NCBI GenBank assembly: GCA_964355955.1
Contig: CAYHFQ010000001.1
Span: 39,419 to 103,418, forward strand
From: an uncultured Gammaproteobacteria bacterium
GTDB lineage: Bacteria > Patescibacteriota > Patescibacteriia > UBA9934
DNA length: 64,000 bases
Reading direction: 5' to 3'
Part shown: one piece after another, positions 13,921-40,680 of the stretch
Numbering within the stretch: position 1 is the first letter of the stretch
Layout of the letters: the number at the start of each line of letters is the position of its first letter
Made by a program: the position numbers and the translations under genes
The notes under the pieces: model-generated
The model's input: only the letters and a program-made list of their open reading frames with translations
Told to the model about the DNA's origin: nothing
Database searches by the model: none

Positions 13921-14001
13921 TTCTCAGCGATGCCAACTGGCGTGCGCTGACAACAAAAGTCCCCTTTCACCGATTGGTGAGAGGGGGCTTCTTCGTTTAG
14001 T

Positions 14002-14031
14002 TCAAGCGGGGCATGGTAACCCCGCCTATTA
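14002..14031. repeat. Palindromic mini-repeat, copy A (intergenic)
   Basis: TCAAGCGGGGCATGGTAACCCCGCCTATTA. Stem GCGGGG/CCCCGC. Near-identical to copies at 16694 and 32010. Confidence 0.8.
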
Positions 14032-16368
14032 AGGGGAGGTCGCTTCGGTCATTGGATCGAGTGGTGGTGGGAGCAGCTTGTCGGCTAAGCCTTGGCGGAG
14101 ACGAGAGAGGCGTGTTTTGACGAGCTCGTTATTTGGGTTGGCGTCGGCCACGGCTTGGACATGAGTTATGGCACCTTCGAGGTCGCCAGCGTTCTCGAGG
14201 ATGGTGGCCAAGTACCAATGAGCATCGGCGTAGTCGGAGCTGATATCGAGAACGCGGAGGAGTTCAGCTTTGGCGAGGTCATTCTTGCCTTGTTTGAGGT
14301 AGAGTAAAGCGAGTTGGACGCCGACACCGACATCGTTTGGATTTGATTTCCGAATAGCTTCGAGGCCCGCAATGGCGTCGGTTAATTTACCTTGGCGCTC
14401 GTAGACGCCGGCCAAGTAGTAGCCAGCCGGAGCATAGTCTGGCTTGAGTTTCTGGGCGGCGAGTAGAGCAGTGAGGGCTGAGTCCAAGGCTGAGAAACGA
14501 ACGAGTGTGGCTTTGGCGGCCAAGTCTTTGTCGGTGCCAGCCATGATGACTGCAGCCCCGTCGGCAGCAGCGAGATAGGCTTGAGCAACGTTGACGAGGT
14601 AACGAGGATTATTGGGAGCGAGTGATTGGGCATTTTGATAGGCAGCGAGTTCGAAAGAAACTGATTCAGGAAGAACTGGTGCGATTTCTTTGTAAGTGTC
14701 ACCGAGAATGACCCAGTTGGCAACGTTGCCACTGGCGAGTTCCGTGGCACGTTTAGCAGCATTGACGCTTGCGCCGACGAGTTGCTGAACGTAGGTTTGG
14801 TCAACGTCTGGCTGCTTCAGAGCAATAGCAGTTTTCTGCAAAAGAATGTGGGCGAGATTGCGATAGTAAATGTCGTTCCAGCGATTAATGACGGCGGCGC
14901 GGTCTAGTGTAGCAATAACGTCATCTGGATTGCCGCCTGTTTGACTGAGGGTGATGGCGCGTTGAAAAGATAGCTCGGCCAAATAGCGAGAACCGGCTAC
15001 GAAGAGTGTAGTGAAGAGGCCGAGGACGACGCAGACGGAGAGGAAGATGGCGACGAGGCCGGTGCGAGGAGATTGGTCAAAAGAAACTTCGTGCAATTTT
15101 TTGACGGAGAGTGAGGCGAGAATGGCAGAGAGAAGCCAGAAGCTGACGGATAAGGTGATGTTTGAGGAGATAAGGAACTGAGCCACGAAGAGCACGAGCC
15201 AAGCAGTGAGTGGTGCAATTATGATAGTTCGATTGGTGGTATGGCGGGAGCTGAAGAGGACGATGATGGCGCCGACCAGAATAGATAAGCAGATGAGCAA
15301 GTAGAAGCTGGTGCTAATGAGGCCGAGTATTGGGAGGAGAGTTAGGAAATACGAGCTGGCCGAGGAGAAAGTAGTGTCCCAGTAAGGTGTGGCGTTGATA
15401 GATGGTGAGTAGTGGGCGGCGTAGTCGAAACCGTAAGTGCCAGCACCGGAGCCGAAGAGGAGATGGTCGTGGAGGGTATTGGTGGCAATAGCGAGGCTAG
15501 CAGATTGAGTTGGGGCGATCTCTGGGGCGAAAGGACTACTGATGGGGCTCGGTAAAATAATAAAGATGAGGCTCAGTCCGAAGAGCAGCATGGGCAGGAC
15601 AAAGCGGCCGTGGTGCTTGAACTCGTTTGTCTTGATGAAGGCGATGAGGAAGAGGGAGCCGAGGCCGACGAGAGTGAGGAGCCAGAGAGGATTGTGGTCG
15701 AGAGCGAGGAGAGTGATGAAAGTTACAAGGGTTGTAATGCTAATAGAGGCGCGGACGATGAGGCCAGAGGGACCGCTCGGCAGTGAGGAGTGTGCGATGT
15801 CGGTTTGATCCGTTAACCAGAGGCCAAGACCGAGGGTCATCATGGCAATAAGATAGACGGCGAAAGTGTTGGCGCCACCGATGAGGGCTGGTATGAACTT
15901 AGCACCAAAGAAAGTTGGGAGAGCGAGCAAGGAAATGAGGGCGCTGCCAATGAGGAGAGCGGAGAGAAGGCGGCGAGTTTGACCCAGGGTTTTCAGAGAC
16001 TCGGCGCCGAGGAAGAAGAGCAGGCCGTACATGGCGAAGCTGAGGACGCTCGTGTATTCCTGCCCAGCTTGGCCCAGTAAGGATAAGTAGGGTGACTCGC
16101 GCAGGCCGGGAGTAATGAGTAGAGCAATGATGAGAAGACCAAAGAGTAAATAACTCCAGTCACGACGTAAACTTAGAGTGCGAGTTTGGATTATAGTGGC
16201 AGTTAAAGAGAGGCTCGCTAGGACGACGATGAGGACGAGGAGAGTTTGTTTAATGAGTTCACGCGGTTCGATGGTGAGGGGTAGATAGAGTAACGGTACG
16301 GCGACGGCCAAAATTAGGAACGCGGCAGACGTCCAGAGTTGGCTCAAACGGGCGAACGAAAATTTCAT
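14029..16368 (-). CDS. O-antigen ligase (Wzy_C)-like polytopic membrane protein with a C-terminal TPR repeat domain
   Basis: About 12 TM helices in the N-terminal two-thirds. TPR-like repeats at the C-terminus (…AQAYLAAADGAAVIMAG…YYLAGVYERQGKLTDA…). Confidence 0.65.
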   Translation of the reverse strand: MKFSFARLSQLWTSAAFLILAVAVPLLYLPLTIEPRELIKQTLLVLIVVLASLSLTATIIQTRTLSLRRDWSYLLFGLLIIALLITPGLRESPYLSLLGQAGQEYTSVLSFAMYGLLFFLGAESLKTLGQTRRLLSALLIGSALISLLALPTFFGAKFIPALIGGANTFAVYLIAMMTLGLGLWLTDQTDIAHSSLPSGPSGLIVRASISITTLVTFITLLALDHNPLWLLTLVGLGSLFLIAFIKTNEFKHHGRFVLPMLLFGLSLIFIILPSPISSPFAPEIAPTQSASLAIATNTLHDHLLFGSGAGTYGFDYAAHYSPSINATPYWDTTFSSASSYFLTLLPILGLISTSFYLLICLSILVGAIIVLFSSRHTTNRTIIIAPLTAWLVLFVAQFLISSNITLSVSFWLLSAILASLSVKKLHEVSFDQSPRTGLVAIFLSVCVVLGLFTTLFVAGSRYLAELSFQRAITLSQTGGNPDDVIATLDRAAVINRWNDIYYRNLAHILLQKTAIALKQPDVDQTYVQQLVGASVNAAKRATELASGNVANWVILGDTYKEIAPVLPESVSFELAAYQNAQSLAPNNPRYLVNVAQAYLAAADGAAVIMAGTDKDLAAKATLVRFSALDSALTALLAAQKLKPDYAPAGYYLAGVYERQGKLTDAIAGLEAIRKSNPNDVGVGVQLALLYLKQGKNDLAKAELLRVLDISSDYADAHWYLATILENAGDLEGAITHVQAVADANPNNELVKTRLSRLRQGLADKLLPPPLDPMTEATSP

Positions 16369-16374
16369 AGGCGA

Positions 16375-19300
16375 CTATGGTGTGGCTGGTGCTTCAGCGG
16401 CTGGAGCTGAGTCTACTGGCGCTGATTCGGCTACGGGCTCAGATGTAACGATAGGATCAGGGGAGGCTACTGGCTCGGCAAGAATAGTGGCGCCAACGGC
16501 TGGGTCGGTCGCTGCTACTGGTTCAGTTATAGTTATGGGATCGGCAACTGATTCAGGGACAGTAGTTGGTTCATCGACTACTACTGGAGCCTCGATTGGA
16601 GTCTCGGTGGTGACAGGCTCGGTGGTTGGAGCAGTGGTATCTGCCGATGGGTCGATTACTGGATTAGTCGAGCTCGGCGTGGAAACTGGCTCATCAGAGC
16701 GGGGCATGGTAACCCCGCCTATTAGATCCGCCTGGACAGGTTCGGTGGTGGCCGAGACTGGTGCGAAGTCTTTGTGGTAGGCCATGACTAACCAGTCGAC
16801 CTCAACGCCGTTTGAGTTATTGATGTCGCGGATAGTGAAGCCAGCGAGGTCGCGCTCGCTGATGTAGATTTGGCCGGTTAAGCCGGATGGGGTGGCAATG
16901 ACGCGATAAGGTGAGGTGTTACTAATGATGTCGGCGAACTGAGGGTCGACGTCGGCGAAGAGAATGCGAGCAATGCCGTTTTGGAGAGTTGATGTGCCGC
17001 TTAATTGAATGAGGTGCTGACGGCTCATGGTGGCGTAGGTTTCGACTGGCGCGCCGCTGTAGCCGGTAACTAGGCCGACGAGCTGACCGTGAGTGGTAAA
17101 ATCGCCGTTAGCGGATAATGACCAGGTGCTGCCGAGGCCTTGCAACGATGAGACAGCGAGAATGCGGCCGCCGTTCATGTTGAGCGAGCCGTCGACGTCG
17201 AGGGTGGAAGTATCCGTGAGACCGGAAACGGAATTATCGGCTGTGACGACCGGGTTAGCAGCGACAACTTCGGCTGAGGTGGCAGGGGCAGGAGCGGCAA
17301 CTGAACCACCGAACCACTGCGGTTGGACGAGCACACGGATGGTACCGGTGGAGGATGATAATGGCTCGAGGGCGTAACCGACTATACGGCCAGCGCCAAT
17401 GGCTTTAGCGCCGTAGCCGCTGGTAGTTGACGAGGCGGTGATAGGGTCACCGATATTGATGACTCCCCTGCTGTCGTCGACTAGGGTGTCGATCTGACCA
17501 ATTAAACCGACGAGACTGTAGTTTGAATTGTGTCGCAGGTCCTCCGAGCTATCGCCTACGTTATTACCAATAAAAGCAGGGTTTGTGGAGATGACGCCGA
17601 TAGGATTGGCTTGCCCAGGAGTACACTGAGTAACGTAATTATTATTAGCAGAATCCTGACAGACTACCTGTCCGCCACTCAAAGCCTCACTGTTGGTGGG
17701 AAAATATTCAGCTAAGTCAGCGCCGCCTCCGGTGAAAGCTCCGTCGGCATAGGCGTCACCACCAGTCGTGACACGGAAGGTTGTGACTGGTCCGGCGCGC
17801 AGAACAATGGCGTCGTCGGCGCTGCCGGCGTCACCGATGTCGATGGCCAAGGCGCTTTCGCCTGGGTCGTCGGCGATATGTGGCGCGGAGTGGGCTTGGG
17901 CGATGAAGATACCTTTAGCACATGGGCTGGCGGTGCAGCTGGTATTGTTAGCGTCTTGGACGACTACTAAAGCGTTACCGGTGCTAGTGGCGCTAGTGTT
18001 GTTTTGCGCAACGCTAAGCAAGGCGCCAGTAAAAGCCGAACCGGCATCGGCTCGAGTGATGGACATGCCAATACCGCTGGTGACGGAGTCGTTGATAAAA
18101 TGCTGACCGATGGTACCGGCAGTGGTGGCAATAGCGGTGTGAACGAGGTCACCGCCACTGAGGTCGAAGGCATCGGCATCGAGGTATGATAGGGAGCCAG
18201 TTGCTGAGGCGTTAGAGGCGTAGAAGGCAATGGTTGGATTATTAGTGTCACTCACGCCGTCACCAATACGCACTATGTTAGTGGCTTCGGTCACTGAGAA
18301 GGCAGCCGTTGTTGTAGTATTGCCGACGGCAAAGTTGTCGCCAGCAGTCACGTAGACCAAACCGGAGCCGTTTGGGGCCAGGGAAATGTCGCCACCTGTT
18401 GAAGAGAGAGCGAGGGCAGATGATGAAGTGACCGAGCCACCGTTGGCTGCCACGATGCCGGTAGTTGCGATATTGCCGTTACTGCCGATGGACCAATCGT
18501 TACCGCCGGTCAAAGTAAATAAAGTTGAAGCATGAGCGTTGCCAATGATGATAGTGTCCGCTTGTGTACCTTCTGTCGCGATGTTGATAGCGTCAGGACT
18601 GTCGGCTGAGGTACCGCCAATGTTGATGGTTTTGGTCGAGACACCGGCCGCGTTGTCGATGTTAAGAGTAGTGGCGGCAGAGGCGAAACTGAGTGTGGTG
18701 GCAGTTGAGGTCAGAAGGTTGAAAGTAGTGGCGCTAGTTGTGAAGTCTCCCCCATTAACTGCGAGGTCGCCTGTAGCCACGGTGTCGCCTTCAGCGTCGA
18801 CGGTAAATTTAGCTGTGCTAGTGACGGCGATGCCAAATAGAACGTCGTTGGCAGAAACGTCGGCAGTAGCTGGATTGACGAGCAATGAACCGTCAGCGTA
18901 GGTGGAGCCGTCTGGGTTACCAGTCAATTTAAGGTTACCAGCGCTTGAGAGAACTAGGGCGGCGGCTGTGGTGGCACCAACTTGAGTACTATCAAAACCA
19001 TCTAGCGTGTCGGAATTCATGGCGTAAGGAGCGGAAACGATTTGTTTGCGAGGGGTTAAAGATTCGCCTGCGACGGTAATGTCCAAGTAGAGAGTGGCAT
19101 TATTAGCAAAAACACTATCGGAAATAGCAGCGTAAGGAGTGCCGGCAGCGGTGTCGCCAAGATTTTCACTGAAGAGGCCGTCAGTTAGAGTTACAGTACG
19201 AGCCGTTGCAGCGGCACCAGAACTATTGCTGTTGGTCCAGACACATTCAGCGTCACCAGGACTACCAGTAGCAAGCGTGGTGTACAGAGCAAAGATCATG

Positions 19301-19488
19301 CTGACTGAAGCAGAACTGATTGGTACACCGTTAGCGTTTAATAAACGGCCCTGATAGTTAAGAATATTGGGGGCGGAGGCGGCGTGAACCTGGGAAAGAG
19401 TGAAACCGAAGAGGCCGGAAAATAATAAGATGGCCAGCAGTGAGCCAGCTAAGAATCGTCGCAATTGAAATGCGGCACGAGTCATCAT
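16375..19488 (-). CDS. Giant secreted surface protein (1037 aa) with a Thr/Gly/Ala-rich beta-rich region and a C-terminal Pro/Thr/Glu-rich tail
   Basis: Signal peptide (…LSQVHAAS). Low-complexity repeats. The C-terminal PVxTEP tail contains in-frame mini-repeat copy B. Confidence 0.6.
16694..16724. repeat. Palindromic mini-repeat, copy B (inside a CDS, in frame)
   Basis: TCAGAGCGGGGCATGGTAACCCCGCCTATTA. On the minus strand it encodes [12 protein letters not shown] within the 1037-aa protein. Confidence 0.8.
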
Positions 19489-22016
19489 ACCTCCGTTTTG
19501 GCTACGTCTTCAGTGGCTTCGGTTAGTGGTACGTCAAGAGCAAGAGCGGTTGGCTCGGTGCGCGTTGTATAGTCAATTGGTCGCACCAATTTCTCGGTGT
19601 AACCAGGTTTGCTATAGCTGACGTAATACTGACTTGGTCCGACTAAAAAGGCGTAGCGACCGAAACGATCCGTTAAAACCGTTTCGATAAGTTTATTATA
19701 CACGGGCTCGAACAATCTGACGACGGTGTTACTCACAGGTTGCTTAGTCACCTCATCGTAAACAATTCCCCAGCCTTTTGGTTTACGGACGCGAGCTAAG
19801 CGACGCACTAAAATATAAACAATTATTTGCACGGCACACATGATAGCAGTGAAAATTGTAGGTGTAATGATGAACACGATGGCGGAGAGAATAATACCGG
19901 CGATGGCGACTATTTGCTGGCCATGACGTAAGAGACGAATGAGCGCGGCGTTACGAGGAGTGGCGAGCGTGATAGCACCAGCTGGATCGAGCGGAATATT
20001 GGCGGCAATAGTTGCCTCCTGATCCGTAACGGTGATAACTTGGCCCGTGTAGACATCGAGGAAGGTGCCGTCGTCTTTTTTACCTTGTAGAATTACACTT
20101 GGGAAGGAATAGTTTGGCTTGAGGACTTCGATAGTGTAGGTGCCAGCCGCAATGGATAACAAATACTCACCTTTTTGGTTGGTGACGACACTGCGGATAA
20201 GTTTATGTTCGGGGCTAGAAAATAGGCGGATGATAGCGAGATCCACCGGAAGTTTGGTGGCGGCGTTATAAACGGTGCCGAAGGCCTTGCGCTTGCGGCG
20301 AGCGAAGAAGAGGAAGGGGGCAGTGAAGAGATATTGCAAGTAGGGGAAGAGGCTGAAGGAGGAGGCGAGAACGACGGCTGAAGTAGCAGCGAGGACGGCT
20401 GTGGCTGGTGTGGCTATGTCTGTGGCGACTTGAACGGCGGGAATCTCACGAATAATATCGAGCTGAGTGGTGACGGCAGAGATTGCGACTGCTACGGCAC
20501 CTGTTGGCTCGACCGGGACTGGAGCAATGACGAGTTGTTTGAGTTCGATGGATGAGGCGAGGATGTGGTTAGTGACCGTAATGGTGGCGCTAGTTCCCTC
20601 TTGATAACCGAGATGACTGGCGGTGATTTGGTAAGTACCGTTCGGGACGTAAAAAGAATAGGAGCCACTGCTGCCGACGAGTACTGGGTTGATGGCACCG
20701 TAGGCCGAGGCGTTCCAGGCAGTACGTGAGCCGCCGCTAGTTTGGTAGACGGTCACCATGGCGCCACTGACCGGCACCCATGATTTATTGATGACTTCGT
20801 AGACCATGCCGCTGCCTTGGACGTTGAGCGTGTAGGAGGAGGTGCTGGCAGTGCCATCGGAGTGGTCGGCTTGAATGGTGAGCGCGGTATCGACGGATGG
20901 TAAGACGATGTTGGCAGTGTAAGTACCGCCACTGGCGACTAAAACGTAGGCAACGTGGTCTATGATGACACGAGCTTCGGTAACGGGAACAGATTCGTCT
21001 AGGGTGACGCTGATGGTGGAAGAAGTGCCAGCGAGAGTAGTAAAAGTGTTAGCGTCTGGAGTGAGCGTCAGGCCACCGTCGACGATGAGAACGGCTGAGG
21101 TTGTAGTAGCTGGAATGACTGGTGGTTCGGTGATGGCTGGTTCAACTGGTGGCGTGGTTGGTTCGGAGGTAGGTGGTGTTGTAGCTGGGGCCGAGTCTGG
21201 AGAAGAAGCTGGCGATGGCGCTGGACTTGGAGCAGGCACTGGAGTTGGTGACGGTGTAGGAGATGGTTCTGGAGTTGGGATAGGTTCTGGGGTTGGTTCG
21301 GGCGTCGGCTCGGGAGTAGGATCGACGGGTGGAATGTCTGGTACGGGGTCTGGAGTTGGATCGGGCGTAGGGGTTGGATCTGGAGTGGGATCGCCGCCGC
21401 AAGCGCCACAGCCGTTGCCACCGTTATTATTGTCAGCTGGAGCTGCGATGGTGCCAGAAACGCCGCCCGAATTACTAGTTACGAAGGGTAAGGGGATGGA
21501 GCCAGAGTCGCCGAAGGTACCGCCGAGCGTAATGTAATAGGTGGCCGCGATGATTGGATTAGTAATTTGGTGTGTGCCACTGCCAGAAGCTGAGGCATTA
21601 GTGCCGACTTCCACCACGACTGAACTGCCGAGAGCGATGTCTCCGCCGTTGCCAGCACAGATGGTGATAGTAAGGACGTTACCAGCCATGGCGACCGAGG
21701 CTTGGTCGGCGCCAGCACAGTTGCTAGCAGTGGTGAGGTCCACACCATCGTCGGCAATATCTACGTCGTCCTCTGTGATGCTAGTTGTAGTAAATTGGGA
21801 GGCGAAGGTGAAAGTTAGGGTGCTACCACCACTAATATTACTTGCTGGCACGAAAACGAATTTGTGGTTGGAGGCAGCCGAAATGACGAGCGATGATGGT
21901 TGATCGTAAAGATCGGTTACGGTGGCGGCTTGGGCGAGGTTGGTTAACGGCAAAACACACACTCCTCCGAGTATGACAAAAAAAGTAGCACGTAAAGCTA
22001 GGAAAAACTTCCTCAC
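19485..22016 (-). CDS. Large surface protein (843 aa) with a PT-rich linker, three CarboxypepD_reg-like domains and C-terminal TM helices
   Basis: Signal peptide. ([13 protein letters not shown]…) linker. Repeats of the form GxVYxxxTKxPVxxAxVRLF…GxYxF…GxYxIxxxKPGY. A hydrophobic segment near the C-terminus. Confidence 0.6.
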
Positions 22017-22025
22017 ACTGTGGTT

Positions 22026-23844: not shown

Positions 23845-23849
23845 ATGGC

Positions 23850-24850: not shown

Positions 24851-24854
24851 GTGG

Positions 24855-24927
24855 ACCTGAGCGGATTCGAACCGCTGACCTCTGCAATGCGAATGCAGCG
24901 CTCTACCAACTGAGCCACAAGCCCTCA
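24855..24927 (-). tRNA. tRNA-Ala (anticodon CGC)
   Basis: Cloverleaf folded by hand. Acceptor GGGCTTG/CAGGTCC with a G3:U70 pair. Anticodon loop TTCGCAT. T-loop GGTTCGAATCC. CCA is not encoded. Confidence 0.85.
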
Positions 24928-25002
24928 TTGTAACTTTGTAAACAGAGTTGTAACACGTGCTGTAACTTATTTGTCTAGAATAGCCTAGACAAATATCTTT
25001 CT

Positions 25003-25079
25003 TGGTGACCTCGACAGGAGTTGAACCTGTAACCTTGTCCTTAGGACGGACCTGCTCTATCCAGTTGAGCTACGAGGTC
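25003..25079 (-). tRNA. tRNA-Arg (anticodon CCT)
   Basis: Acceptor GACCTCG/CGAGGTC. D-arm GCTC-AACTGGATA-GAGC. Anticodon loop GTCCTAA. T-arm ACAGG-TTCAACT-CCTGT. CCA is encoded. Confidence 0.8.
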
Positions 25080-25336
25080 ATATTCCAGCCCTGCCAGCTT
25101 TGGCCTATTTTGGGCTTGTTGCGGCGTCGACTTCTTCAACTCACGACCAAAGTGAGTCTCAGAAAGTCGACTTGCTCCGCACCCAAACTAGTCTCAAATC
25201 TGACAGTCCTGTCTGCTCTGTTCATCGAAACTAGCCTCAAATCTGAAAGTTCCGCGTACATCGTTCGTCTGTTGTCGTGCTATACTACAAGCTCGAGAAC
25301 AGGGCGAGTATAGTCATTTTTAAGCTTTGGGTCAAT

Positions 25337-26473: not shown

Positions 26474-26487
26474 ACCAGCCAACCCAA

Positions 26488-26520
26488 ATAGTGATAAACT
26501 CCAATAGACTTAGTTTATTG
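26488..26520 (+). terminator. Rho-independent terminator after rmuC
   Basis: AAACTCCAATAgacttagtTTATTGGAGTTTTG. Confidence 0.55.
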
Positions 26521-26532
26521 GAGTTTTGTATT

Positions 26533-26997
26533 ATGAATGATTTAGAATATTTAGCACTAGCGACAAAACAAGCAAGAAGCTCGGCTGAACAAGGCGGCTT
26601 TCCGGCTGGAGCCGTGCTGGTGAAGGATGGCTTGGTTGTTGCCCAAGGAGTGAGTATTGGTGCTACATTGTGTGATCCGACAAGCCACGGCGAGATAGCG
26701 ACGATTCGCGAGGCCTGCAATCAACTTAAAACGACGAGTTTAATTGGAGCAACGCTTTATACGTCGATGGAGCCATGCTTAATGTGTTTCTGTGCAGCTT
26801 ATTGGGCCGATGTGTCCAGGATTGTTTATGGTTGTCGACGAACGCCGGAGATGATTAAGAATGGTTATTATCAAGGGACTACGGAGATTGCGATGGTAAA
26901 TGCGGATAATAATCGAAAGATTCAATTAGAGTTTAGACCTGAATTTGAAGATGAAGTACAGCAACTAATTTCTGATTGGGCTGAGAGTGTTATATAA
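26533..26997 (+). CDS. CMP/dCMP-type zinc deaminase (TadA-like or guanine deaminase family)
   Basis: HGE…PCLMC zinc-binding signature (HGEIATIREA … MEPCLMCFCA). Confidence 0.75.
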   Translation: MNDLEYLALATKQARSSAEQGGFPAGAVLVKDGLVVAQGVSIGATLCDPTSHGEIATIREACNQLKTTSLIGATLYTSMEPCLMCFCAAYWADVSRIVYGCRRTPEMIKNGYYQGTTEIAMVNADNNRKIQLEFRPEFEDEVQQLISDWAESVI

Positions 26998-26998
26998 T

Positions 26999-27568
26999 AT
27001 GAAAATTATTCTCGGTTCGCAATCCAGGTTTAGGGCGCAGGCGCTGATGGAGGCGGGGATTGTGGTGGATGAATGTATAAGTCCGGGGATAGATGAGAAA
27101 GCGATACGAAATGATAATCCGGAAGAGTTGGTGCTGGCGTTGGCTAAGGCGAAAGCTGCAGCGATAATCGATAAGATTGATGGGCCGGCGATTTTGATTA
27201 CGGCGGATCAAGTGGTGATGTGTAATGGCGAAATACGGGAGAGGCCGGTAGATAGGGCGGAGGCAATAAGGTTTTTGGCAAGTTATGTAGCGTGGCCAGC
27301 AGTGGTAGTAAATGGACTGCAAGTGACGAATACGGCGACGGGTAAAGTGGCGACCGGGATTGATCGGTCCGAGATTATTTATAAGCCTACGCTGCTCGCG
27401 AAGATTGAAGAGATAGTGGATAATTCGTTTGCGCTTGAGGCGGCAGGTGCGTTAGTGGAGGAGAATCCGATGATGATTCCGCATGAGCTGAGACGAACAG
27501 GGGAGATTGATAGTTTTATGGGCATGCCGATTGAGTTGGTGAAGAGGTTGATGAGGGAAGTTGAGTAA
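26999..27568 (+). CDS. maf: Maf-like nucleoside triphosphate pyrophosphatase (septum formation protein Maf)
   Basis: MKIILGSQSRFR… N-terminus and overall Maf family pattern. Confidence 0.8.
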   Translation: MKIILGSQSRFRAQALMEAGIVVDECISPGIDEKAIRNDNPEELVLALAKAKAAAIIDKIDGPAILITADQVVMCNGEIRERPVDRAEAIRFLASYVAWPAVVVNGLQVTNTATGKVATGIDRSEIIYKPTLLAKIEEIVDNSFALEAAGALVEENPMMIPHELRRTGEIDSFMGMPIELVKRLMREVE

Positions 27569-27572
27569 CACA

Positions 27573-27612
27573 AAACGTTACACCAGTTCGGTGTAACGTT
27601 TTATGTGTGATC
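27573..27612. terminator. Bidirectional terminator between maf (+) and rpsT (-)
   Basis: AAAACGTTACACCagttcGGTGTAACGTTTT: a perfect 13-bp stem with flanking A- and T-runs. Confidence 0.65.
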
Positions 27613-27619
27613 GCGTCAA

Positions 27620-27889
27620 TTACTTTTTGAGAGCTAGGTTGAGCTTGGCGGCCAAGCGGGACTTGGTGCGACCAGCGGTGTTGGCGCTGATGACGTTCTT
27701 GCCAGCGGCTTTGTCCAAGGCTTGGGTCAACTTAGCGTAGATGGTCTTAGCATCCATAGCTTTGCCGGCTTCCAAGGCTTTGCGGAACTGGCGCTTCAAG
27801 CTGTCGACGAGGTTGCGGCGAACGGCGTTACGTTCAGCGCGCTTATTGGCTTGACGCAAGGCTTTGATGGCGTTTTGTAGGTTTGGCAT
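27620..27889 (-). CDS. rpsT: 30S ribosomal protein S20
   Basis: 89 aa, basic. MPNLQNAIKALRQANKRAERN… is the typical S20 N-terminus. Confidence 0.88.
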   Translation of the reverse strand: MPNLQNAIKALRQANKRAERNAVRRNLVDSLKRQFRKALEAGKAMDAKTIYAKLTQALDKAAGKNVISANTAGRTKSRLAAKLNLALKK

Positions 27890-27930
27890 AACAAAATTGG
27901 TGGGGAATTGATTAACTCAAGATTGTGCGA

Positions 27931-27959
27931 AGTGTAGCGGAAGTTCGAAAAAACGTCAA
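27931..27959 (-). promoter_or_regulatory. Sigma70-like promoter of rpsT
   Basis: Minus strand reads TTGACG-17 nt-TACACT. It shares the 15-mer TTCCGCTACACTTCG with the ychF promoter. Confidence 0.55.
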
Positions 27960-28047
27960 GAAACCGTGCCTTAAACAGAATGAGGACCCCAACCCGGCGG
28001 CTGGCCAGATAGGGTCCTCGACGACGCGGTTCTATGTGGTTTTGTAC

Positions 28048-28617
28048 CTACTGACGGGGAACTGCCGTCAGAGCTTTTCCGCCATAGGTGTCACCTAACG
28101 AGCAGATGAGTGTTCGGATCTGGTTCTTGCGCTTCGTGACGCCCAGAATGTAACGATTCTCAACCTCGACATGATCACGCACGGAGCTTGTGTCTACGAG
28201 ACGGAAGATCGTCCCACAGACCACCAGCATGCTGAACCAGCTATCTGGGAAGAGGCTGGGATCCGCCTTGATGTGATCGATGATGTGACTCGGCAGCACG
28301 CTAGGATGTTCACTCAGCATGACCTTGCCGACCAGGAAGGCGTCGGACAACTGAGTAGGACAGAAGCGAACGTCAAGCCTATTGAAATCGAACCGGCCAC
28401 GGAAAAGGTTCGGCAGCTGATCCTCCTCATAGTAGGCATAACCCTCAGGGATCTTGGGGGTGACGGAGCAGTCGACCCAGACAGGCCTGCTGGAGGTGAT
28501 GAACTGGCGAAGGTGTTGGCGATCCTGAGCCATGGCGAGCAGATCCGCCGAGGTACCGTCTTCGGCAGCGATACTGGCAAGGAGGGTGTTGATACTGGAT
28601 TGGTCGAAAGAGTGCAT
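28048..28617 (-). CDS. Hypothetical protein (GC-rich)
   Basis: 189-aa ORF between holA and rpsT on the same strand. No recognisable motif. Confidence 0.4.
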   Translation of the reverse strand: MHSFDQSSINTLLASIAAEDGTSADLLAMAQDRQHLRQFITSSRPVWVDCSVTPKIPEGYAYYEEDQLPNLFRGRFDFNRLDVRFCPTQLSDAFLVGKVMLSEHPSVLPSHIIDHIKADPSLFPDSWFSMLVVCGTIFRLVDTSSVRDHVEVENRYILGVTKRKNQIRTLICSLGDTYGGKALTAVPRQ

Positions 28618-28686
28618 GGGAACTCCTGCAGGTGGGAAAGGGAAGCCACCTAGCGGCAGCCTATCACAAATTAGCCCTAGAGCAAA

Positions 28687-29658
28687 CTAAATAGCCAGCA
28701 TTTCAGCCACAAGGCGGTCCACAGCCAGGCCGGCGTCTAGGCCGCCGGTTTTGGCGTCGTGGTCTAGTTTGACGAGGAGTTGATGGAGATTCAAAAGCTG
28801 GAGGAGGGTGAAGCGCTTGGCTTGGCTGGTGGCTTTGCCGGCTACGAACGGGTGTAAGGAGAGGCGTTTGGCGACGTCCGCCGCGGCCCCAGGCTCGTCG
28901 GCGAGGAGGACGCGGATCTGTAGGAGAATGCGGATTTGGCGGGCCAACATGGTGAGGAGGTAGAAGTCGACGGAACCGGCGGCCCGTTCTGTGGCCAAGA
29001 GGCGCAGTGCGTTTTTGGCGTCGCGCTGACTGATAGCATCCACGAAGGCGAAAATGTTAGATTCACTGGAGCTTTGGACGAGTAGGTCGAGCATGGCGGA
29101 CGTGATTGGCTGGCCGCCCGAGTAGGCGACGAGTTTGGCGAGCTCGTTTTGTAGTTGCCAGGCGTCGGAGCCGACCCGCGTGGCGAGATCGGTAGCTGTC
29201 GATAACGTGAGTTGGCCGCCTTGTTTTTTGGCCTCTTCCACCAGCCAGGCGTAGAGAACAGAGCCGGTGCGTTTAACTTCGGAGTAAGTGTGGACTTCAG
29301 CCCCGTCTTTGAGGCGTTTGAAGAGTTCGTGCTTCTCGACCTTAGCGGAATCGAGATTGTCGACGAGGACGAGGATGGTAGAAGACGGGGTTTTGGCGAG
29401 GCCTTCCGCCCACATTATGGCGTCATCTTTCTTGAGGCCGTCCATGAGGTTATGAACAATGACCATACGCTTCTCGCTGAGAAAAGGCGAGGACATGATA
29501 GCCTGGAGCACGTCGGGATAGTCGGTATGGTCTTGGCCGATGGTGAAAGAAGCAAGATTGAGGCCAGTAGTATCAAATTTGGTAGTAAATTGCGTGGTTA
29601 ATTGCAAAAGTTTGGCTTTGAGCCGAACGCCGTCGTCGCCGTAAATGAAAATAATCAT
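28687..29658 (-). CDS. holA: DNA polymerase III delta subunit
   Basis: MIIFIYGDDGVRLKAK… N-terminus and a three-domain holA-like sequence. The maximal ORF extends to 29814, but MIIF is the typical start. Confidence 0.75.
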   Translation of the reverse strand: MIIFIYGDDGVRLKAKLLQLTTQFTTKFDTTGLNLASFTIGQDHTDYPDVLQAIMSSPFLSEKRMVIVHNLMDGLKKDDAIMWAEGLAKTPSSTILVLVDNLDSAKVEKHELFKRLKDGAEVHTYSEVKRTGSVLYAWLVEEAKKQGGQLTLSTATDLATRVGSDAWQLQNELAKLVAYSGGQPITSAMLDLLVQSSSESNIFAFVDAISQRDAKNALRLLATERAAGSVDFYLLTMLARQIRILLQIRVLLADEPGAAADVAKRLSLHPFVAGKATSQAKRFTLLQLLNLHQLLVKLDHDAKTGGLDAGLAVDRLVAEMLAI

Positions 29659-29768
29659 AGCTCCCCGATAGTAACGGATTTTGACGGAAAAAGCGAAGGC
29701 CCCAAGTCCAGGTGGACGAGGGGCCGACACGACGACGGTGAGAGCGGGCGGTGTGGACCGAGCCGATC

Positions 29769-30146
29769 CTACATGGCGAACTGGCGACGAGTGAAGATCC
29801 ACATGTCGACGCACGCGCCCGAAGGATTGTTCTCGATGGCCTCGATCTTGAAATCGACCAGTCCTCGAGTGGCAGTGGCGAGAATGCCCAACGCCGCATT
29901 GTGCATGGTGCGTTCCGCAGCCGTGTAGCGCACACGCAGCCTCACCTCACGTCCCACCTGCAAGCGGGTGATGAAGGTACCAAGGCAGAAGTCGCCGAGC
30001 ACTGCGCGGTAGGGTCGCAGATGACGATGCAGAGCAGCACGGTCACGAACGATGGTGACGGAAATAGCCAAGAGAGACTCCGGGTTTGCTGGGAGACGAG
30101 CCAGGGATTGGCACGAGGGGAGCAAAACGTGGCTAAAGTTTGCCAC
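29769..30146 (-). CDS. Hypothetical small protein (GC-rich; strand uncertain)
   Basis: 125-aa ORF between polA and holA on the minus strand. A 132-aa ORF overlaps on the plus strand. Placement is by operon logic only. Confidence 0.25.
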   Translation of the reverse strand: MANFSHVLLPSCQSLARLPANPESLLAISVTIVRDRAALHRHLRPYRAVLGDFCLGTFITRLQVGREVRLRVRYTAAERTMHNAALGILATATRGLVDFKIEAIENNPSGACVDMWIFTRRQFAM

Positions 30147-30292
30147 TAATATACAAAAAAGTCAACTTTAATATCGCTTAGAGTGAGTGAGTTACTTCTA
30201 ACTGCGCGCCGTCAACCGTGCCATCTGACTCACCTCGTGTGACTCGGGAGCTGGCACAGGGCCGGTGCTCGTGTCGGCGTAACTCACTCACT

Positions 30293-32959
30293 CTATGCTA
30301 AATCGCCCCAGTTGGTGCCGGTTTCGACGTCGACGAGGAGAGGGACATCGAGGGTAATGACGGAGGTCATGATTTCCTGAACTTTTTGCGAGACTACGGG
30401 GACGTCGGCCAGGTCAGCTTCCAGGACAAGTTCGTCGTGGACTTGGAGAATTAGTTTGGTGCTGAGGCCGGAGGAAGTGAGCCAATCTTGGACACGACGC
30501 ATGGCGATTTTTATAATGTCGGCTTGCGTGCCTTGGGCTGGCATGTTGATGGCCATTCTTTCCGCCATGGCGACTAACTGGGGCATATTGCCGTTGATTT
30601 CTGGGAGGTAGCGGCGGCGACCGAAGAGCGTTTCTACGTATTCGTCGGCGTGAGCTTTGGCTTTCATGGTGTCGATAAAGTCGCGGATGCCGGGGTGAGC
30701 TTGGAAATAAAGCTCTATAAATCCTTTAGCTTCTTCGAAGCTGACCTTCGATGAACGTGCCAGCGCACGGGCGCCGATGCCGTAGAGAATGCCGAAGTTG
30801 ATGGCTTTGGCGGCGTAACGTTGTTCTTTGGTCACCTCAGATTCTGGAATGCCCCACATTTCCGCGGCGGTGCGTTTGTGAATGTCGGCGTTATCCTGGA
30901 AGGCGGTAATGAAACCGGTGTCCTTGGCGAGCACGGCAGCTAAACGTAATTCAATTTGCGAATAGTCGGCGCTGATGAGGACTCGGCCTGGTGGAGCGAT
31001 GAAGGCTTTGCGGATCTCGCGACCGAGTTCGGAGCGCACTGGAATGTTCTGTAAGTTTGGATTTGATGATGACAAACGGCCCGTGGCAGCGATACATTGA
31101 TTAAATTCGGCGTGAATGCGACCGTCTGCTGCGACGAGAAGAGGAAGGGAATCGGCGTAAGTATTTTTTAGTTTGGCGATTTCGCGGTACTCGCTGATGA
31201 GAGCGACGATGGGGTGCAGAGCAGTAATTTTTTCGAGCTCGGGGGCGGCGGTGGAGAAGCCGCTCTTGGTTTTTTTGATGCCCTTAGTCGGAATGGCTAG
31301 GTCGATGTAGAGAATGTCAGCCAGCTGCGAAGGAGATTGAATGTTGAATTCTTTTCCGGCCGCAGCGTATATCTTGGTGGTGAGACCGGCCAGGGTGATA
31401 GCAAACTTTTTAGATAGTTCTTGGAGGATCGAACTGTCGACGGCGATGCCTGTGTGTTCCATTTGAAAGAGGACGCCGATGAGGGGCATTTCGATTTCGG
31501 CGGAAAGTTTGGTCATGCCGACGTGGGCAAGTTTGGCTTGGAGGGCGGTCGACAAAGTGAGAAGAGTGCTGAGCGTCGAGGCGACGTCGCCCTGTAGCTC
31601 GATGTTGAGCGAATCGCTGACGATATCAGCAAAAGCCATGGCCCGTTCGCCCGAGGAGAGGAGGTAGGCCGCGACCATGGTGTCGAAGCAGGGGCGATTA
31701 AGGGCTGGGGTGACGTCGACGCCGGCTTGGGCGAAAGTGTGCCAGATGGCCTTGAGATCGTGGGCGATGATGAGATTGGCGGTCGATAATAGTTTTACGA
31801 TGTCGGTCATGACGTCGACGCTTGGTGAGTCCGCAATGAAAGTGGTTTTGCCGTCGGTGAGGGCGATGCTTGAGAGACCAGCAGTGCTGAAGAGATCTTG
31901 CTGAGGCTTGTTGGTTAAGAGAATCGCGAGTTTGGTTGAGTTGAGAGTGTTTAGTTCGCCGAGCTTAATAGTTGATTTTTTTGGAGTTGTAATTGTGGCG
32001 GCAGGTACATCAGGGCGGGGGGCGGTGACCCCGCCTATTACGGTTTCGGAGGAAGAGACTACGGGCTCGGACGATGCGGGGAGGTACTTTTTGAGGAGGG
32101 TGTTGAATTCGAGGTCTTGCAGGAGGGGGATGAGGGTGGTGGTGTCGGGTGGTTGAACGGTGGCTTGGTCGAGAGAGAAGTCGGCAAGGGGGACGTCGCG
32201 GACAATGGTGACCAGGCGTTTCATTTGCTTGGCTACTTCGGCTTGGCCGGTGAGCTTTTTGGCGTACTTGGAGGGAACCATGCCAGTGGCGAGATTGGCA
32301 AAAATGCCGTCGACTGTGCCGAATTGTTCGAGGAGTTCGAGGGCGGATTTTTCGCCAATGCCAACTACGCCTGGGAGGTTGTCAGAATGGTCGCCGATGA
32401 GAGTTTTGTAGTCGATGAGTTGATTAGGACGGAGGTGATAGCGGGCAATGACAGCGGCTTCGTCGTACAGAGTTGTTTGCGAGAGGCCTTTGACGAAGAA
32501 GACGACGTGCGTCGTGTCGTCGACCAATTGGAGAGCATCGAGATCGCCAGTGACAATGAGAGTTTTAATGCCTTTGGTTTTGTTGATGGTGGCGATGGTG
32601 CCGAGGATGTCGTCGCCCTCAAAACCGGGGACGGAAAGCGAGGGGAGGTGATAGGCTTTGAGAACTTCCTGAATCATGGGGATTTGGGCGTAGAGTTCAG
32701 GGGCCTTTTTTTCGCGTTGGGATTTATATTCCACGTACTCGTCGTGGCGGAAGGTTTTGCCAGGCAAGTCCCAAGCGACGGCCATATAATCCGGCTTAAG
32801 TTGCGAGAGCATTTTCTCGATGACCATGATAAAGCCGTAAACAGCGTTGACTACGCGGCCATCTTTGGTGGTGAGGGGCGGAATGGCGTGCCAGGCGCGG
32901 TGGAGCAAGGCGTTGCCGTCGAGAATAAGAAAAGTTTTGGCGGAGGCGGATGATGTCAT
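30293..32959 (-). CDS. polA: DNA polymerase I
   Basis: 5'-3' exonuclease N-terminus (…FLILDGNALLHRAWHA…). Pol A motifs (…RRYAAKAINFGILYGIGARALA…, …QVHDELVLE…). The first Met before the exonuclease domain is at 32959; the maximal ORF extends to 33007. Confidence 0.92.
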   Translation of the reverse strand: MTSSASAKTFLILDGNALLHRAWHAIPPLTTKDGRVVNAVYGFIMVIEKMLSQLKPDYMAVAWDLPGKTFRHDEYVEYKSQREKKAPELYAQIPMIQEVLKAYHLPSLSVPGFEGDDILGTIATINKTKGIKTLIVTGDLDALQLVDDTTHVVFFVKGLSQTTLYDEAAVIARYHLRPNQLIDYKTLIGDHSDNLPGVVGIGEKSALELLEQFGTVDGIFANLATGMVPSKYAKKLTGQAEVAKQMKRLVTIVRDVPLADFSLDQATVQPPDTTTLIPLLQDLEFNTLLKKYLPASSEPVVSSSETVIGGVTAPRPDVPAATITTPKKSTIKLGELNTLNSTKLAILLTNKPQQDLFSTAGLSSIALTDGKTTFIADSPSVDVMTDIVKLLSTANLIIAHDLKAIWHTFAQAGVDVTPALNRPCFDTMVAAYLLSSGERAMAFADIVSDSLNIELQGDVASTLSTLLTLSTALQAKLAHVGMTKLSAEIEMPLIGVLFQMEHTGIAVDSSILQELSKKFAITLAGLTTKIYAAAGKEFNIQSPSQLADILYIDLAIPTKGIKKTKSGFSTAAPELEKITALHPIVALISEYREIAKLKNTYADSLPLLVAADGRIHAEFNQCIAATGRLSSSNPNLQNIPVRSELGREIRKAFIAPPGRVLISADYSQIELRLAAVLAKDTGFITAFQDNADIHKRTAAEMWGIPESEVTKEQRYAAKAINFGILYGIGARALARSSKVSFEEAKGFIELYFQAHPGIRDFIDTMKAKAHADEYVETLFGRRRYLPEINGNMPQLVAMAERMAINMPAQGTQADIIKIAMRRVQDWLTSSGLSTKLILQVHDELVLEADLADVPVVSQKVQEIMTSVITLDVPLLVDVETGTNWGDLA
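32010..32040. repeat. Palindromic mini-repeat, copy C (inside polA, in frame)
   Basis: TCAGGGCGGGGGGCGGTGACCCCGCCTATTA. On the minus strand it encodes IGGVTAPRPD in the linker between the 5'-exonuclease and 3'-exonuclease-like domains of Pol I. Confidence 0.8.
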
Positions 32960-33064
32960 AATAGTTGGATTGTACAGGTGGGGGCGATAAAAAAGAAGTG
33001 CGCCCACCCCGAGGTGAGTCGGGAGGGCGCAGGGTGATCTGCGAGGGAATCAGGTGGACGGGGG

Positions 33065-39573: not shown

Positions 39574-39617
39574 CAATGTTTACAGACAAGGGACGAAGTT
39601 CGACGTCGTCCTGGGAG
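39574..39617. repeat. Direct repeat DR1 with an internal hairpin (GGACGA…TCGTCC), left flank of the kinase cassette
   Basis: CAATGTTTACAGACAAGGGACGAAGTTCGACGTCGTCCTGGGAG. About 40 of 44 nt are identical to DR2 at 40638-40680. Confidence 0.7.
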
Positions 39618-40637: not shown

Positions 40638-40680
40638 CAATGTTTGCAGGCAAGGGACGAAGTCCGACGTCGTCCTGAGG
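40638..40680. repeat. Direct repeat DR2, right flank of the kinase cassette
   Basis: CAATGTTTGCAGGCAAGGGACGAAGTCCGACGTCGTCCTGAGG. Same hairpin core as DR1, followed by TTTTATAC. It may also act as a bidirectional terminator. Confidence 0.7.

What the first reader, a model, noticed from the sequence alone, without database searches (positions are those of the whole stretch)
14002..32040. A ~30-bp palindromic mini-repeat present three times, twice inserted in frame inside protein-coding genes (polA and a giant surface protein)
The sequence TCA(R)GCGGGG-N3-GGT(R)ACCCCGCCTATTA occurs at 14002-14031 (intergenic), 16694-16724 and 32010-32040. It contains the hairpin GCGGGG…CCCCGC. The last two copies lie inside minus-strand CDSs in the same orientation and frame. 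They add the peptide …IGGVT(A/M)PR(P/S)D… to the Pro/Thr-rich C-terminal tail of the 1037-aa surface protein and to the inter-domain linker of DNA polymerase I. Both positions should tolerate insertions. Copies A and B are identical over 27 nt; copy C differs at a few loop positions. This looks like a REP/MITE-like mobile or recombinogenic element that can settle as an in-frame coding insertion. That is unusual and would be overlooked by gene-level annotation.
Basis: seen in the sequence. Interest (0 to 1): 0.8.

Follow-up and report, generated by a model that had tools for sequence, protein, structure and literature searches.

The report
REP palindromes inserted in frame in genes
The three ~33-bp hairpin repeats are REP elements, partnered with a REP-associated tyrosine transposase (RAYT), in a tiny-genome Uhrbacteria (CPR) bacterium; two sit in frame inside polA and a surface-protein gene, which is real but already described in other bacteria.

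Summary
In detail: three copies, chance expectation 0.01, and no further copies in the 64 kb. On the coding (minus) strand the unit is about 33 nt: (T)AATA-GGCGGGG-T-Y-ACC-R-YN-CCCCGCY-..GA. It has a 7-bp G+C stem and one perfectly covarying inner pair.

It is a REP (repetitive extragenic palindrome) of the GTAG-tagged kind, here tagged ATAG. The source genome very probably encodes a bona fide RAYT (P0236, NCBIfam REP_Tyr_transpos above cut-off). That gene lies in a cluster of six copies of this same element. Related Uhrbacteria genomes carry 7-12 exact-pattern copies.

Copy A is an exact 33-nt insertion at a stop codon and supplies the TAA. Copies B and C are translated as (L/V)IGGVT(M/A)PR(S/P)D in a low-complexity tail and in the polA inter-domain linker. 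About nine independent intragenic insertions in polA, dnaX, ribonucleotide reductase and membrane proteins use this one frame.

In-frame intragenic REPs, including one in a polA linker, and REPs that donate stop codons were described in 2013 (PMC3733652). So this is a new member of a known kind. The new points are the CPR host, the frame bias and a REP inside the RAYT gene itself.

The parts
14001..14033 (-). REP copy A (sense strand: CTTAATAGGCGGGGTTACCATGCCCCGCTTGAA). Its TAA at 14029-14031 is the stop codon of the 779-aa gene. It lies in the 3' UTR, upstream of the real terminator.
   Evidence: 48.6 bits; exact 33-nt insertion relative to sister genome L086 (CCA TAA CGAAGAAG).
16694..16726 (-). 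REP copy B, translated in frame as [11 protein letters not shown] (about aa 922-932) in the Pro/Thr/Glu-rich C-terminal tail of the 1037-aa protein.
   Evidence: 48.4 bits; orthologues P0122 and P0123 have the tail but lack this peptide (net +33 nt relative to L086).
32010..32042 (-). REP copy C (GGC/G loop variant), translated in frame as VIGGVTAPRPD (aa ~322-333 of the ORF) in the polA linker.
   Evidence: 50.7 bits; the 5'-3' exonuclease domains end at aa 289 and DNA_pol_A starts at aa 527; hypervariable linker; decayed orthologous copy in L079.
14029..16368 (-). Host gene of copy A: a 779-aa polytopic membrane protein with C-terminal TPR repeats.
16375..19488 (-). Host gene of copy B: a 1037-aa secreted or surface protein with no Pfam domain. 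The low-complexity tail is conserved among six orthologues.
30293..33007 (-). Host gene of copy C: DNA polymerase I (polA).
13957..13990 (.). Conserved terminator hairpin between the convergent genes, downstream of copy A and also present in the sister genome that lacks the REP. It shows that the REP is not the terminator.

Best explanation
The three repeats are REP elements (repetitive extragenic palindromes) of a REP-RAYT system in a Candidatus Uhrbacteria (CPR/Patescibacteria) genome. Each unit is about 33 nt: a 5' tag (A)ATAG, a 7-bp G+C stem with a small internal loop and an ACC triloop closed by a covarying pair, and a short 3' tail. The inferred mechanism, by analogy with E. coli TnpA-REP, is as follows. 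The genome's single RAYT is an HUH/Y1 enzyme related to IS200 transposases. It recognises the tag plus hairpin on single-stranded DNA and cuts and rejoins it, so units are spread and kept uniform. In a ~1-Mb, gene-dense genome many insertions land in genes. A 33-nt unit is 11 codons, so it never shifts the frame. Only insertions in frames without stops and in tolerant places survive, such as inter-domain linkers, low-complexity tails and stop-codon regions. That produces the peptide IGGVTxPRxD/E in polA and the surface protein, and a REP-supplied TAA at the end of the TPR gene. Shown here: repeat family, structure, RAYT association, insertion relative to empty sites, frame bias. Inferred: RAYT catalysis, and selection as the cause of the frame bias. 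Any RNA-level effect (3'-end protection, slower termination) would be secondary.
For: (1) Family. The pattern scan of 185,579 species genomes found the motif in multiple copies in Uhrbacteria MAGs: 12 in LJ_bin-3226, 7 in Umea1p2_bin-0579, 2 in UBA11707.
(2) Anatomy. In 27 CPR copies the A at -3 is invariant although it was not in the search pattern. Conservation stops at about -4 and +25. The inner pair covaries perfectly, C-G in 16 copies and T-A in 11. On the 26-sequence alignment A2 the split is 16/10 and 99.5% of cells pair. Divergent copies show compensatory stem changes: GACGGGG/CCCCGTC in L061, and C-G to T-A in L057. Folding gives -15.5 to -16 kcal/mol as RNA and -7 to -9 as DNA.
(3) RAYT. 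P0236 (161 aa) is recorded on a longest contig of 1,085,513 bp, the same length as for P0121, which is 100% identical to the window's surface protein. It scores 101.7 bits against NCBIfam NF047646, REP-associated tyrosine transposase (cut-off 80). Its best PDB hit is 4ER8 TnpA-REP, with the HUH and Tyr motifs aligned. In L089 six REP copies lie within 1.8 kb around it, including copies directly upstream and downstream. The same layout occurs in L061 and L002.
(4) Insertion. Copy A is exactly +33 nt relative to L086. The first ribonucleotide-reductase copy is a 33-nt gap relative to L059. Copy B is net +33 nt.
(5) Context. Of the 27 CPR copies, 10 are inside long sense ORFs in the IGGVTxPR frame and about 10 lie at or within 23 nt after a sense-strand stop codon. 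Two more in-frame copies lie in the L089 ribonucleotide-reductase gene. Host genes are identified.
(6) Precedent. GTAG REPs that donate stop codons and intragenic REPs in polA, dnaE2 and uvrA are documented in PMC3733652.
Against: No RAYT gene lies in the 64-kb window itself, and its presence in the same genome rests on matching contig length, not on a read-through sequence. The tag is ATAG, not the canonical GTAG. Two of the three window copies are intragenic, against the 'extragenic' definition. No catalysis or recent transposition is shown. The polA site gives no clean indel because the linker is hypervariable. The strong sense-strand and single-frame bias is not predicted by passive insertion plus a stop-codon filter, because 4 of 6 frames are open.
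Confidence: 0.85

Rival explanations
1. The hairpin is primarily an RNA-level regulatory element selected in the sense orientation. It would protect mRNA 3' ends, or slow ribosomes at or near stop codons and at domain boundaries. RAYT linkage would be incidental.
For: At least 20 of 27 copies are in the sense orientation relative to the overlapping or upstream gene. About 10 sit at or within 23 nt after a stop codon. Convergent genes in L002 each carry their own sense copy. The RNA hairpin is stable at -15.5 to -16 kcal/mol. Some intergenic copies are followed by T-runs (L032, L051, L046). From my own knowledge, E. coli REPs within about 15 nt of a stop codon reduce expression through ribosome stalling (Liang, Rudd and Deutscher 2015); that paper is not in the searchable library.
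Against: Sister genome L086 has the same gene, stop codon and terminator without the REP, so the element is dispensable there. Copies A, B and C have no U-tract, and the real terminator lies downstream of A. Antisense copies exist in dnaX, in L054 and in RAYT genes. Clustering around RAYT is explained by the transposase and not by RNA function.
Confidence: 0.1
2. IGGVTxPR is a functional peptide module, such as a protease, modification or interaction site, conserved at the protein level. The nucleotide similarity would follow from that.
For: The same frame is used in about nine independent host-gene sites. The decayed polA copy in L079 keeps IGGGVTKPRPD although its hairpin is destroyed.
Against: Copy A and about half of all copies are untranslated. 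Other copies are translated in other frames or on the other strand, as [16 protein letters not shown] or AGYGNPAY. Synonymous positions are fixed. The one variable synonymous position (GTY) covaries with the first base of a codon four positions on, which is a nucleic-acid constraint.
Confidence: 0.03
3. The element is a protein-binding or uptake signal, such as a DUS/USS-like DNA uptake sequence, a gyrase site or another site, spread by recombination and not by a transposase.
For: From my own knowledge, USS/DUS also occur in coding DNA in preferred frames, and DUS pairs can form terminator-like hairpins. Also from my own knowledge, CPR bacteria depend on DNA uptake. Orthologous copies stay identical to the consensus across species.
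Against: Density is about 1 per 21 kb in the window and about 10 exact-pattern copies per MAG, against about 1 per kb for DUS/USS. Copies cluster tightly around and inside the RAYT gene. The tag-plus-hairpin architecture is that of REPs.
Confidence: 0.03
4. The similarity is chance similarity of G+C-rich linker sequence.
For: None beyond the small copy number in the window.
Against: Zero of 100 shuffles give 3 matches. There are 56 model hits in related loci. An A at -3 that was not searched for is invariant.
Confidence: 0.005

Closest known systems
GTAG-tagged REPs and their REPtrons (E. coli REP/BIME with RayT/TnpA-REP, PDB 4ER8; GTAG families of Di Nocera et al. 2013, including Opitutus terrae)
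   Same: A 20-40-nt G+C hairpin with a conserved 5' tetranucleotide. Dispersed copies, mostly just downstream of genes. The tag often supplies the stop codon. The cognate RAYT is flanked by copies. Occasional in-frame intragenic copies occur in replication and repair genes, including a polA linker (R. palustris, aa 338-367, which is a CGTC-tagged REP). Opitutaceae MAGs carry GTAG-GCGGGGTGACCTCACCCCGC, which shares the stem and GGT/ACC loop core with the CPR element.
   Different: The tag is ATAG (A invariant in 27/27 CPR copies). The host is a ~1-Mb CPR genome. Roughly 40% of copies are intragenic, almost all in one frame. The RAYT gene itself carries an in-frame REP. Copies are mostly singletons and not REPIN/BIME dimers. 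The RAYT is only 29% identical to the Verrucomicrobia RAYT next to the look-alike REP.
Rickettsia palindromic elements (RPE; RPE-4/-6 are CGTC-tagged REPs)
   Same: Palindromic repeats found in frame inside genes that stay functional, in a small genome.
   Different: RPE-1 is 100-150 bp. RPEs carry the CGTC tag, not (G/A)TAG, and no associated transposase is known (PMC3733652). There is no sequence similarity.
Bacterial MITEs (Correia/NEMIS, RUP, Nezha)
   Same: Non-autonomous short repeats mobilised in trans that can fuse to ORFs.
   Different: MITEs are 70-300 bp with terminal inverted repeats and target-site duplications made by DDE transposases. This element is a single 33-nt hairpin linked to a Y1/HUH enzyme.
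IS200/IS605 insertion sequences
   Same: The enzyme family (PF01797 Y1_Tnp) and recognition of subterminal DNA hairpins on single strands.
   Different: P0236 matches the RAYT equivalog above its cut-off and IS200 only below its cut-off. The repeat is a lone hairpin, not the two distinct ends of an IS that carries its own gene.
DNA uptake sequences (Neisseria DUS, Pasteurellaceae USS)
   Same: Short motifs tolerated in coding DNA in preferred reading frames.
   Different: They are about 20-fold denser and have no cognate transposase.

Membership tests
REP / REPtron (REP-RAYT system) | Short (20-40 nt) imperfect palindrome with a G+C-rich stem | tested here: met
   7-bp stem GGCGGGG/CCCCGCY with an 8-nt loop region. 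99.5% of cells pair. The inner pair covaries C-G/T-A.
REP / REPtron (REP-RAYT system) | Conserved tetranucleotide tag (GTAG) at one end of the hairpin | tested here: inconclusive
   The tag sits at the correct position and is invariant, but it reads ATAG in all 27 CPR copies. The look-alike family in Opitutaceae reads GTAG. Published families show degeneracy at positions 2-4, not at position 1.
REP / REPtron (REP-RAYT system) | Many dispersed copies within one genome | tested here: met
   3 copies in the 64-kb window. 6 copies in the 12.7-kb RAYT locus L089. 12 and 7 exact-pattern copies in two related MAGs. The whole-genome count for the source contig could not be made.
REP / REPtron (REP-RAYT system) | A cognate RAYT gene (Y1/HUH, distinct from IS200 TnpA) flanked by the REPs | tested here: met
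   P0236: NF047646 101.7 bits against cut-off 80; IS200 model 24 bits against cut-off 55. Best PDB hit is 4ER8. REPs lie 15 nt upstream of the gene, inside it and immediately downstream. The same holds in L061 and L002. Assignment to the source genome is by identical longest-contig length, 1,085,513 bp.
REP / REPtron (REP-RAYT system) | Extragenic location | tested here: not met
   Copies B and C are inside ORFs, and about 40% of copies in relatives are too. Published REP families have the same exceptions, so this feature is descriptive and not decisive.
REP / REPtron (REP-RAYT system) | RAYT binds and cleaves the REP on single-stranded DNA | not testable with these tools
   This needs purified P0236 and REP oligonucleotides.
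MITE | Terminal inverted repeats flanking a 70-300-bp body, with target-site duplication | tested here: not met
   The unit is 33 nt and nothing is conserved outside -4..+25. At the one clean empty site only a 3-nt TAA microhomology is seen.
Rickettsia RPE / CGTC REPs | CGTC tag; no linked transposase | tested here: not met
   The tag is ATAG, and a RAYT is linked.
Intrinsic terminator | G+C hairpin directly followed by a U-tract | tested here: not met
   The window copies are followed by CTGATG, CTGATG and TTGAAC. The terminator-like hairpin lies downstream at 13957-13990.
DNA uptake sequence | Very high genomic density (about 1 per kb) | tested here: not met
   3 copies per 64 kb.

The most novel reading that the evidence does not exclude
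In these ultra-small CPR genomes the REP-RAYT system may have adapted to the lack of intergenic space. The mobile unit would be exactly 11 codons. It would be kept almost exclusively in the one sense frame that encodes a flexible Gly/Pro peptide. It would preferentially decorate linkers of replication proteins (polA, dnaX, ribonucleotide reductase). The RAYT gene would carry its own REP in frame in a fixed loop, seen in all 11 homologues, possibly as an autoregulatory or self-targeting feature. Sister genomes hold a different hairpin family at the same sites, which hints at family turnover at fixed permissive sites. On this reading the coding-linker niche and the RAYT-internal REP are functional features of a distinct REPtron variant and not accidents.
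Probability: 0.2. Interest if true: 0.65.

Novelty: new member of a known kind. Interest (0 to 1): 0.4.

Why it matters
It places a REP-RAYT system in the Candidate Phyla Radiation; I found no paper on this in the searchable library. It also gives a natural map of insertion-tolerant sites in essential proteins: the polA linker, the dnaX linker, loops of ribonucleotide reductase and surface-protein tails.

In practice these 33-nt units create spurious indels and shared peptides (IGGVTxPR) in unrelated proteins. That can mislead orthologue alignment, domain calling and homology searches in CPR genomes. Presence or absence of the units could serve as strain markers.

The single-frame bias and the REP inside the RAYT gene are testable leads on how REPs are tolerated or controlled. 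The basic phenomenon, in-frame intragenic REPs including one in polA, is already published, so the finding extends a known picture and does not open a new one.

Tried and rejected
- Rfam at gathering thresholds found only four tRNAs in the window and no known RNA family at the repeats.
- The covariance-model search found no extra or degenerate copies in the window and none in 20 kb around polA in three close relatives.
- I looked for a clean polA indel. The linker is hypervariable, and the nearest relatives carry either a decayed copy (L079) or a different hairpin element (L080, L082). No clean empty site exists there.
- The metagenome pattern scan gave only 3 loci, so it added little.
- phmmer with E. 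coli RayT against all window ORFs gave no hit. The RAYT lies elsewhere in the genome and was reached only through the relatives' RAYT.
- I considered gene fusion by loss of a REP-borne stop codon for copy B. I rejected it because all six orthologues have the same low-complexity tail.
- I considered replication-strand bias as the cause of the common orientation. It is weakened by convergent genes that each carry a sense copy (L002), and by the opposite orientation of the RAYT-flanking copies on the same strand as their neighbours.
- I considered cross-contamination between Opitutaceae and CPR bins. I rejected it because the two variants differ consistently (GTAG/TGACC against ATAG/TYACC) and the Opitutaceae flanks are visibly G+C-richer and unlike those of the CPR loci, which are 47-55% G+C.
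- The paper on REPs near stop codons and trans-translation was not in the library. It is cited from my own knowledge only.
Full report
**Observation**

The 23-mer pattern matches only at 14006-14028, 16699-16721 and 32015-32037. The chance expectation is 0.01, and 0 of 100 shuffles reach three matches. Looser searches for the tail or for the bare hairpin find the same three sites and nothing else.

All neighbouring genes are on the minus strand, so the element is best read there: 5'-TAATAG-GCGGGG-loop-CCCCGC-YYTGA.
- Copy B lies in frame in the 1037-aa ORF 16375..19488 and reads [11 protein letters not shown].
- Copy C lies in frame in polA, 30293..33007, and reads VIGGVTAPRPD.
- Copy A overlaps the end of the 779-aa ORF 14029..16368. 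Its TAA is that gene's stop codon.

Two independent assemblies match the window exactly over 9.1 and 8.4 kb. L091 spans copies A and B; L092 ends before copy A and contains copy B only. The repeats are therefore not assembly artefacts.

**Family and anatomy**

One scan of a genome per species found the pattern in 78 loci. They fall into two consistent variants:
- Candidatus Uhrbacteria/Patescibacteria MAGs read ATAG-GCGGGG-T-Y-ACC-R-YN-CCCCGC. There are 12 copies in LJ_bin-3226, 7 in Umea1p2_bin-0579 and 2 in UBA11707.
- Opitutaceae/Verrucomicrobia MAGs read GTAG-GCGGGGTGACCTCACCCCGC. That is a textbook GTAG-tagged REP.

In 27 CPR copies nothing is conserved beyond about -4 to +25. The A that completes ATAG is invariant although it was not part of the search pattern. 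The two variable loop positions covary without exception, C-G in 16 copies and T-A in 11 (16/10 on the 26-sequence alignment A2). On the coding strand these two positions are a synonymous third base (GTY) and the first base of the codon after ACC. The constraint is therefore on nucleic-acid structure, not on the peptide.

Divergent copies found with a covariance model show compensatory stem changes: GACGGGG/CCCCGTC in L061, and C-G to T-A in L057. The hairpin is stable as RNA (-15.5 to -16 kcal/mol) and as DNA (-7 to -9 kcal/mol). The model finds exactly three copies in the window; the next best hit scores 8.7 bits. Rfam has no family for it.

**The partner enzyme**

I ran phmmer with E. coli RayT against every ORF of the fetched loci. 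It hit ORFs beside the repeats in four loci from three lineages. Pfam Y1_Tnp supports them, above its cut-off for the Uhrbacteria ORF (L002) and for L061.

A profile of those two retrieved P0236, a 161-aa protein. Its longest contig is 1,085,513 bp. That is the same length recorded for P0121, the protein 100% identical to the window's surface protein. I take this to mean the source genome encodes it. This is inferred from the matching contig length, not read directly.

P0236 passes NCBI's curated equivalog model for REP-associated tyrosine transposase (101.7 bits against a cut-off of 80). It fails the IS200 model. Its best solved relative is TnpA-REP, PDB 4ER8, with the HUH and catalytic-Tyr motifs aligned.

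In the 12.7-kb locus L089 six REP copies lie within 1.8 kb:
- two in frame in the ribonucleotide reductase gene;
- one intergenic;
- one 15 nt upstream of the RAYT start;
- one inside the RAYT gene, read as [10 protein letters not shown];
- one directly after the RAYT stop.

The same REP-[RAYT with internal REP]-REP layout recurs in L061 and L002. This is the defining REPtron arrangement.

**Are they insertions?**

- Copy A. The sister genome L086 (surface protein 75% identical) reads CCA TAA CGAAGAAG. The window reads CCT TAA [33 nt] CGAAGAAG. The terminator hairpin that follows is the same in both. This is an exact 33-nt insertion with a 3-nt TAA microhomology at the junction.
- Copy B. All six orthologues have the Pro/Thr/Glu-rich tail, so the tail is real. 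P0122 and P0123 lack the REP peptide. The net difference to L086 between conserved anchors is 33 nt.
- Ribonucleotide reductase. The first copy corresponds to a 33-nt gap in L059.
- Copy C. The polA linker is hypervariable, so no clean empty site exists. L079 (polA 88% identical) carries a decayed copy at the same place: ATAGGAGGTGGTGTTACCAAGCCCCGTCCTGA, read as IGGGVTKPRPD. Other close relatives carry unrelated sequence, and distant orthologues have a shorter linker.

Pfam places the polA insertion between the 5'-3' exonuclease domains, which end at aa 289, and the polymerase domain, which starts at aa 527.

**Context statistics**

Of the 27 CPR copies, 10 lie inside long sense-strand ORFs, always in the frame that gives IGGVT[AMV]PR. 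About 10 lie at or within 23 nt after a sense-strand stop codon, and the stop is often the element's own TAA or TAG. Only 3-4 are antisense. One search adds two more in-frame sense copies in the L089 ribonucleotide-reductase gene.

Host genes include polA, dnaX (an inverted pair in L078, half-decayed in L057), class II ribonucleotide reductase (two sites, shared by up to three species) and several membrane proteins.

Collapsing orthologous sites leaves about 9 of 11 independent intragenic events in one of the four stop-free frames. By my own binomial calculation on those counts, P is about 1e-4. A 33-nt unit is 11 codons, so frame preservation is automatic. The choice of frame is not explained by stop codons alone. 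I attribute it to selection for the small, flexible Gly/Pro peptide over alternatives such as RRGHRPPP. That is an inference.

**Mechanism**

The best-supported reading is a REP-RAYT system. RAYT acts on the tag plus hairpin in single-stranded DNA; this step is inferred from E. coli biochemistry. In a gene-dense ~1-Mb genome the surviving copies are those at gene ends, where they can donate the stop codon, and in tolerant protein segments.

The decayed polA copy lies in a relative with no other copies in 20 kb. The window's copy still matches the consensus perfectly. This fits published ideas that REPs persist only while their RAYT is present, but I did not test that.

RNA-level roles are possible secondary effects and are not needed to explain the data. 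The same gene, stop codon and terminator work without the REP in L086.

**Comparison with what is known**

Di Nocera et al. 2013 (PMC3733652) describe the following:
- GTAG- and CGTC-tagged REP superfamilies;
- REPs mostly just downstream of ORFs;
- REP termini that supply the stop codon;
- REPtrons;
- intragenic in-frame REPs enriched in replication and repair genes, with the most in Opitutus terrae, and with one in a polA at aa 338-367.

What I did not find described:
- a REP-RAYT system in CPR/Patescibacteria;
- the ATAG tag;
- the near-exclusive single reading frame;
- a REP in frame inside the RAYT gene at a fixed loop in all 11 homologues.

I file this as a new member of a known kind, with interest 0.4.

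**Limits**

- The whole source genome could not be scanned.
- RAYT activity and REP mobility are inferred.
- The similarity between the CPR REP and the Opitutaceae REP, whose neighbouring RAYTs are only 29% identical, is unexplained. It could be common descent, transfer or convergence.

Noticed in passing
L089 4929-4961; L061 1474-1506; L002 2361-2393; proteins P0234-P0244: The RAYT genes of this clade carry a REP copy in frame inside their own coding sequence, in the loop just before the conserved IWQDSFFDY motif. It reads RGxVTPPI, RRGHRPPP or AGCGDPAY depending on strand and frame. Some homologues have 2-3 such inserts. In L002 homology to RAYT stops after the internal REP, so that gene may be truncated. 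Verrucomicrobia RAYTs have a native ITPPVWQ at that position, so whether this is an insertion, a replacement or shared origin is unresolved.
   Followed up: partly
L080 10907-10924 and 13403-13420; L087 12515-12532; L086 about 13090-13130: Sister genomes carry a second, unrelated mini-palindrome of about 42 nt: AACCCTCCCCCAGYYATGGGGGAGWTGGWGGGGGCYTTAA. It is read in frame as (N)PPPAMGELEGA. It sits in the polA linker and the surface-protein tail at about the same sites as the window's REPs, and also in holA (23 nt replaced by 44 nt). In L086 it supplies the stop codon of the surface-protein gene. It is absent from the window.
   Followed up: partly
window 44983-45030 (minus strand), inside ORF 44641..45873 (NDH-2, Pyr_redox_2): A third repeat family of about 50 nt has two hairpins: CCAAAGCTSAGCTTTGG ... 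CGAGCTNAGCTCG. It occurs once in the window, in frame in an NDH-2 gene (EPTKAELWSHINNRAELD). It also occurs in six of the fetched loci (L002, L007, L011, L051, L080/L081, L086), including in frame as SQSSALAANxxxELSS in surface-protein tails and next to a REP in L007.
   Followed up: partly
L001, L003-L006, L008-L010 and about 45 further Opitutaceae/Verrucomicrobia loci: Opitutaceae MAGs hold many copies of GTAG-GCGGGGTG(A/G)CCTCACCCCGC, which shares the stem and loop core with the CPR REP. In SMAG_U6205 the flanks are also repeated, which suggests a longer unit. RAYT-like ORFs lie in L005 and L031, and the one in L031 is about 115 nt from a copy. Why two distant phyla share this REP core is unexplained.
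   Followed up: partly
L023, L027, L028, L061, L077: MAGs labelled 'uncultured Gammaproteobacteria' carry the CPR-type REP (tag ATAG, or GTAG in L023). Four of the loci come from the 839-kb contig of binchicken_co134_9 (60-62% G+C); L027 comes from a second MAG (51% G+C). binchicken_co134_9 encodes a RAYT 46% identical to the Uhrbacteria one. The taxonomic label or the history of this system deserves a check.
   Followed up: no
window 1-64000: GC skew of the + strand is positive in every 2-kb bin (up to +0.33), although the genes examined lie on the minus strand. Coding strands in this organism are therefore markedly C-rich, which favours Pro/Thr/Ala/Ser-rich low-complexity tails.
   Followed up: no
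window 25175-25251 and 55462-55495: A 34-nt direct repeat (CTGTTCATCGAAACTAGCCTCAAATCTGAAAGTT) is present twice in tandem just beyond the tRNA genes at 24852-25079 and once 30 kb away. It could be a promoter or regulatory box.
   Followed up: no
window 39574-39613 and 40638-40677: A 40-nt direct repeat, 93% identical, with copies 1064 bp apart. It probably lies in paralogous genes.
   Followed up: no
L016 2289-2347: A REP copy whose loop appears to carry an extra ~26 nt (model hit of 59 nt, 32.5 bits).
   Followed up: no
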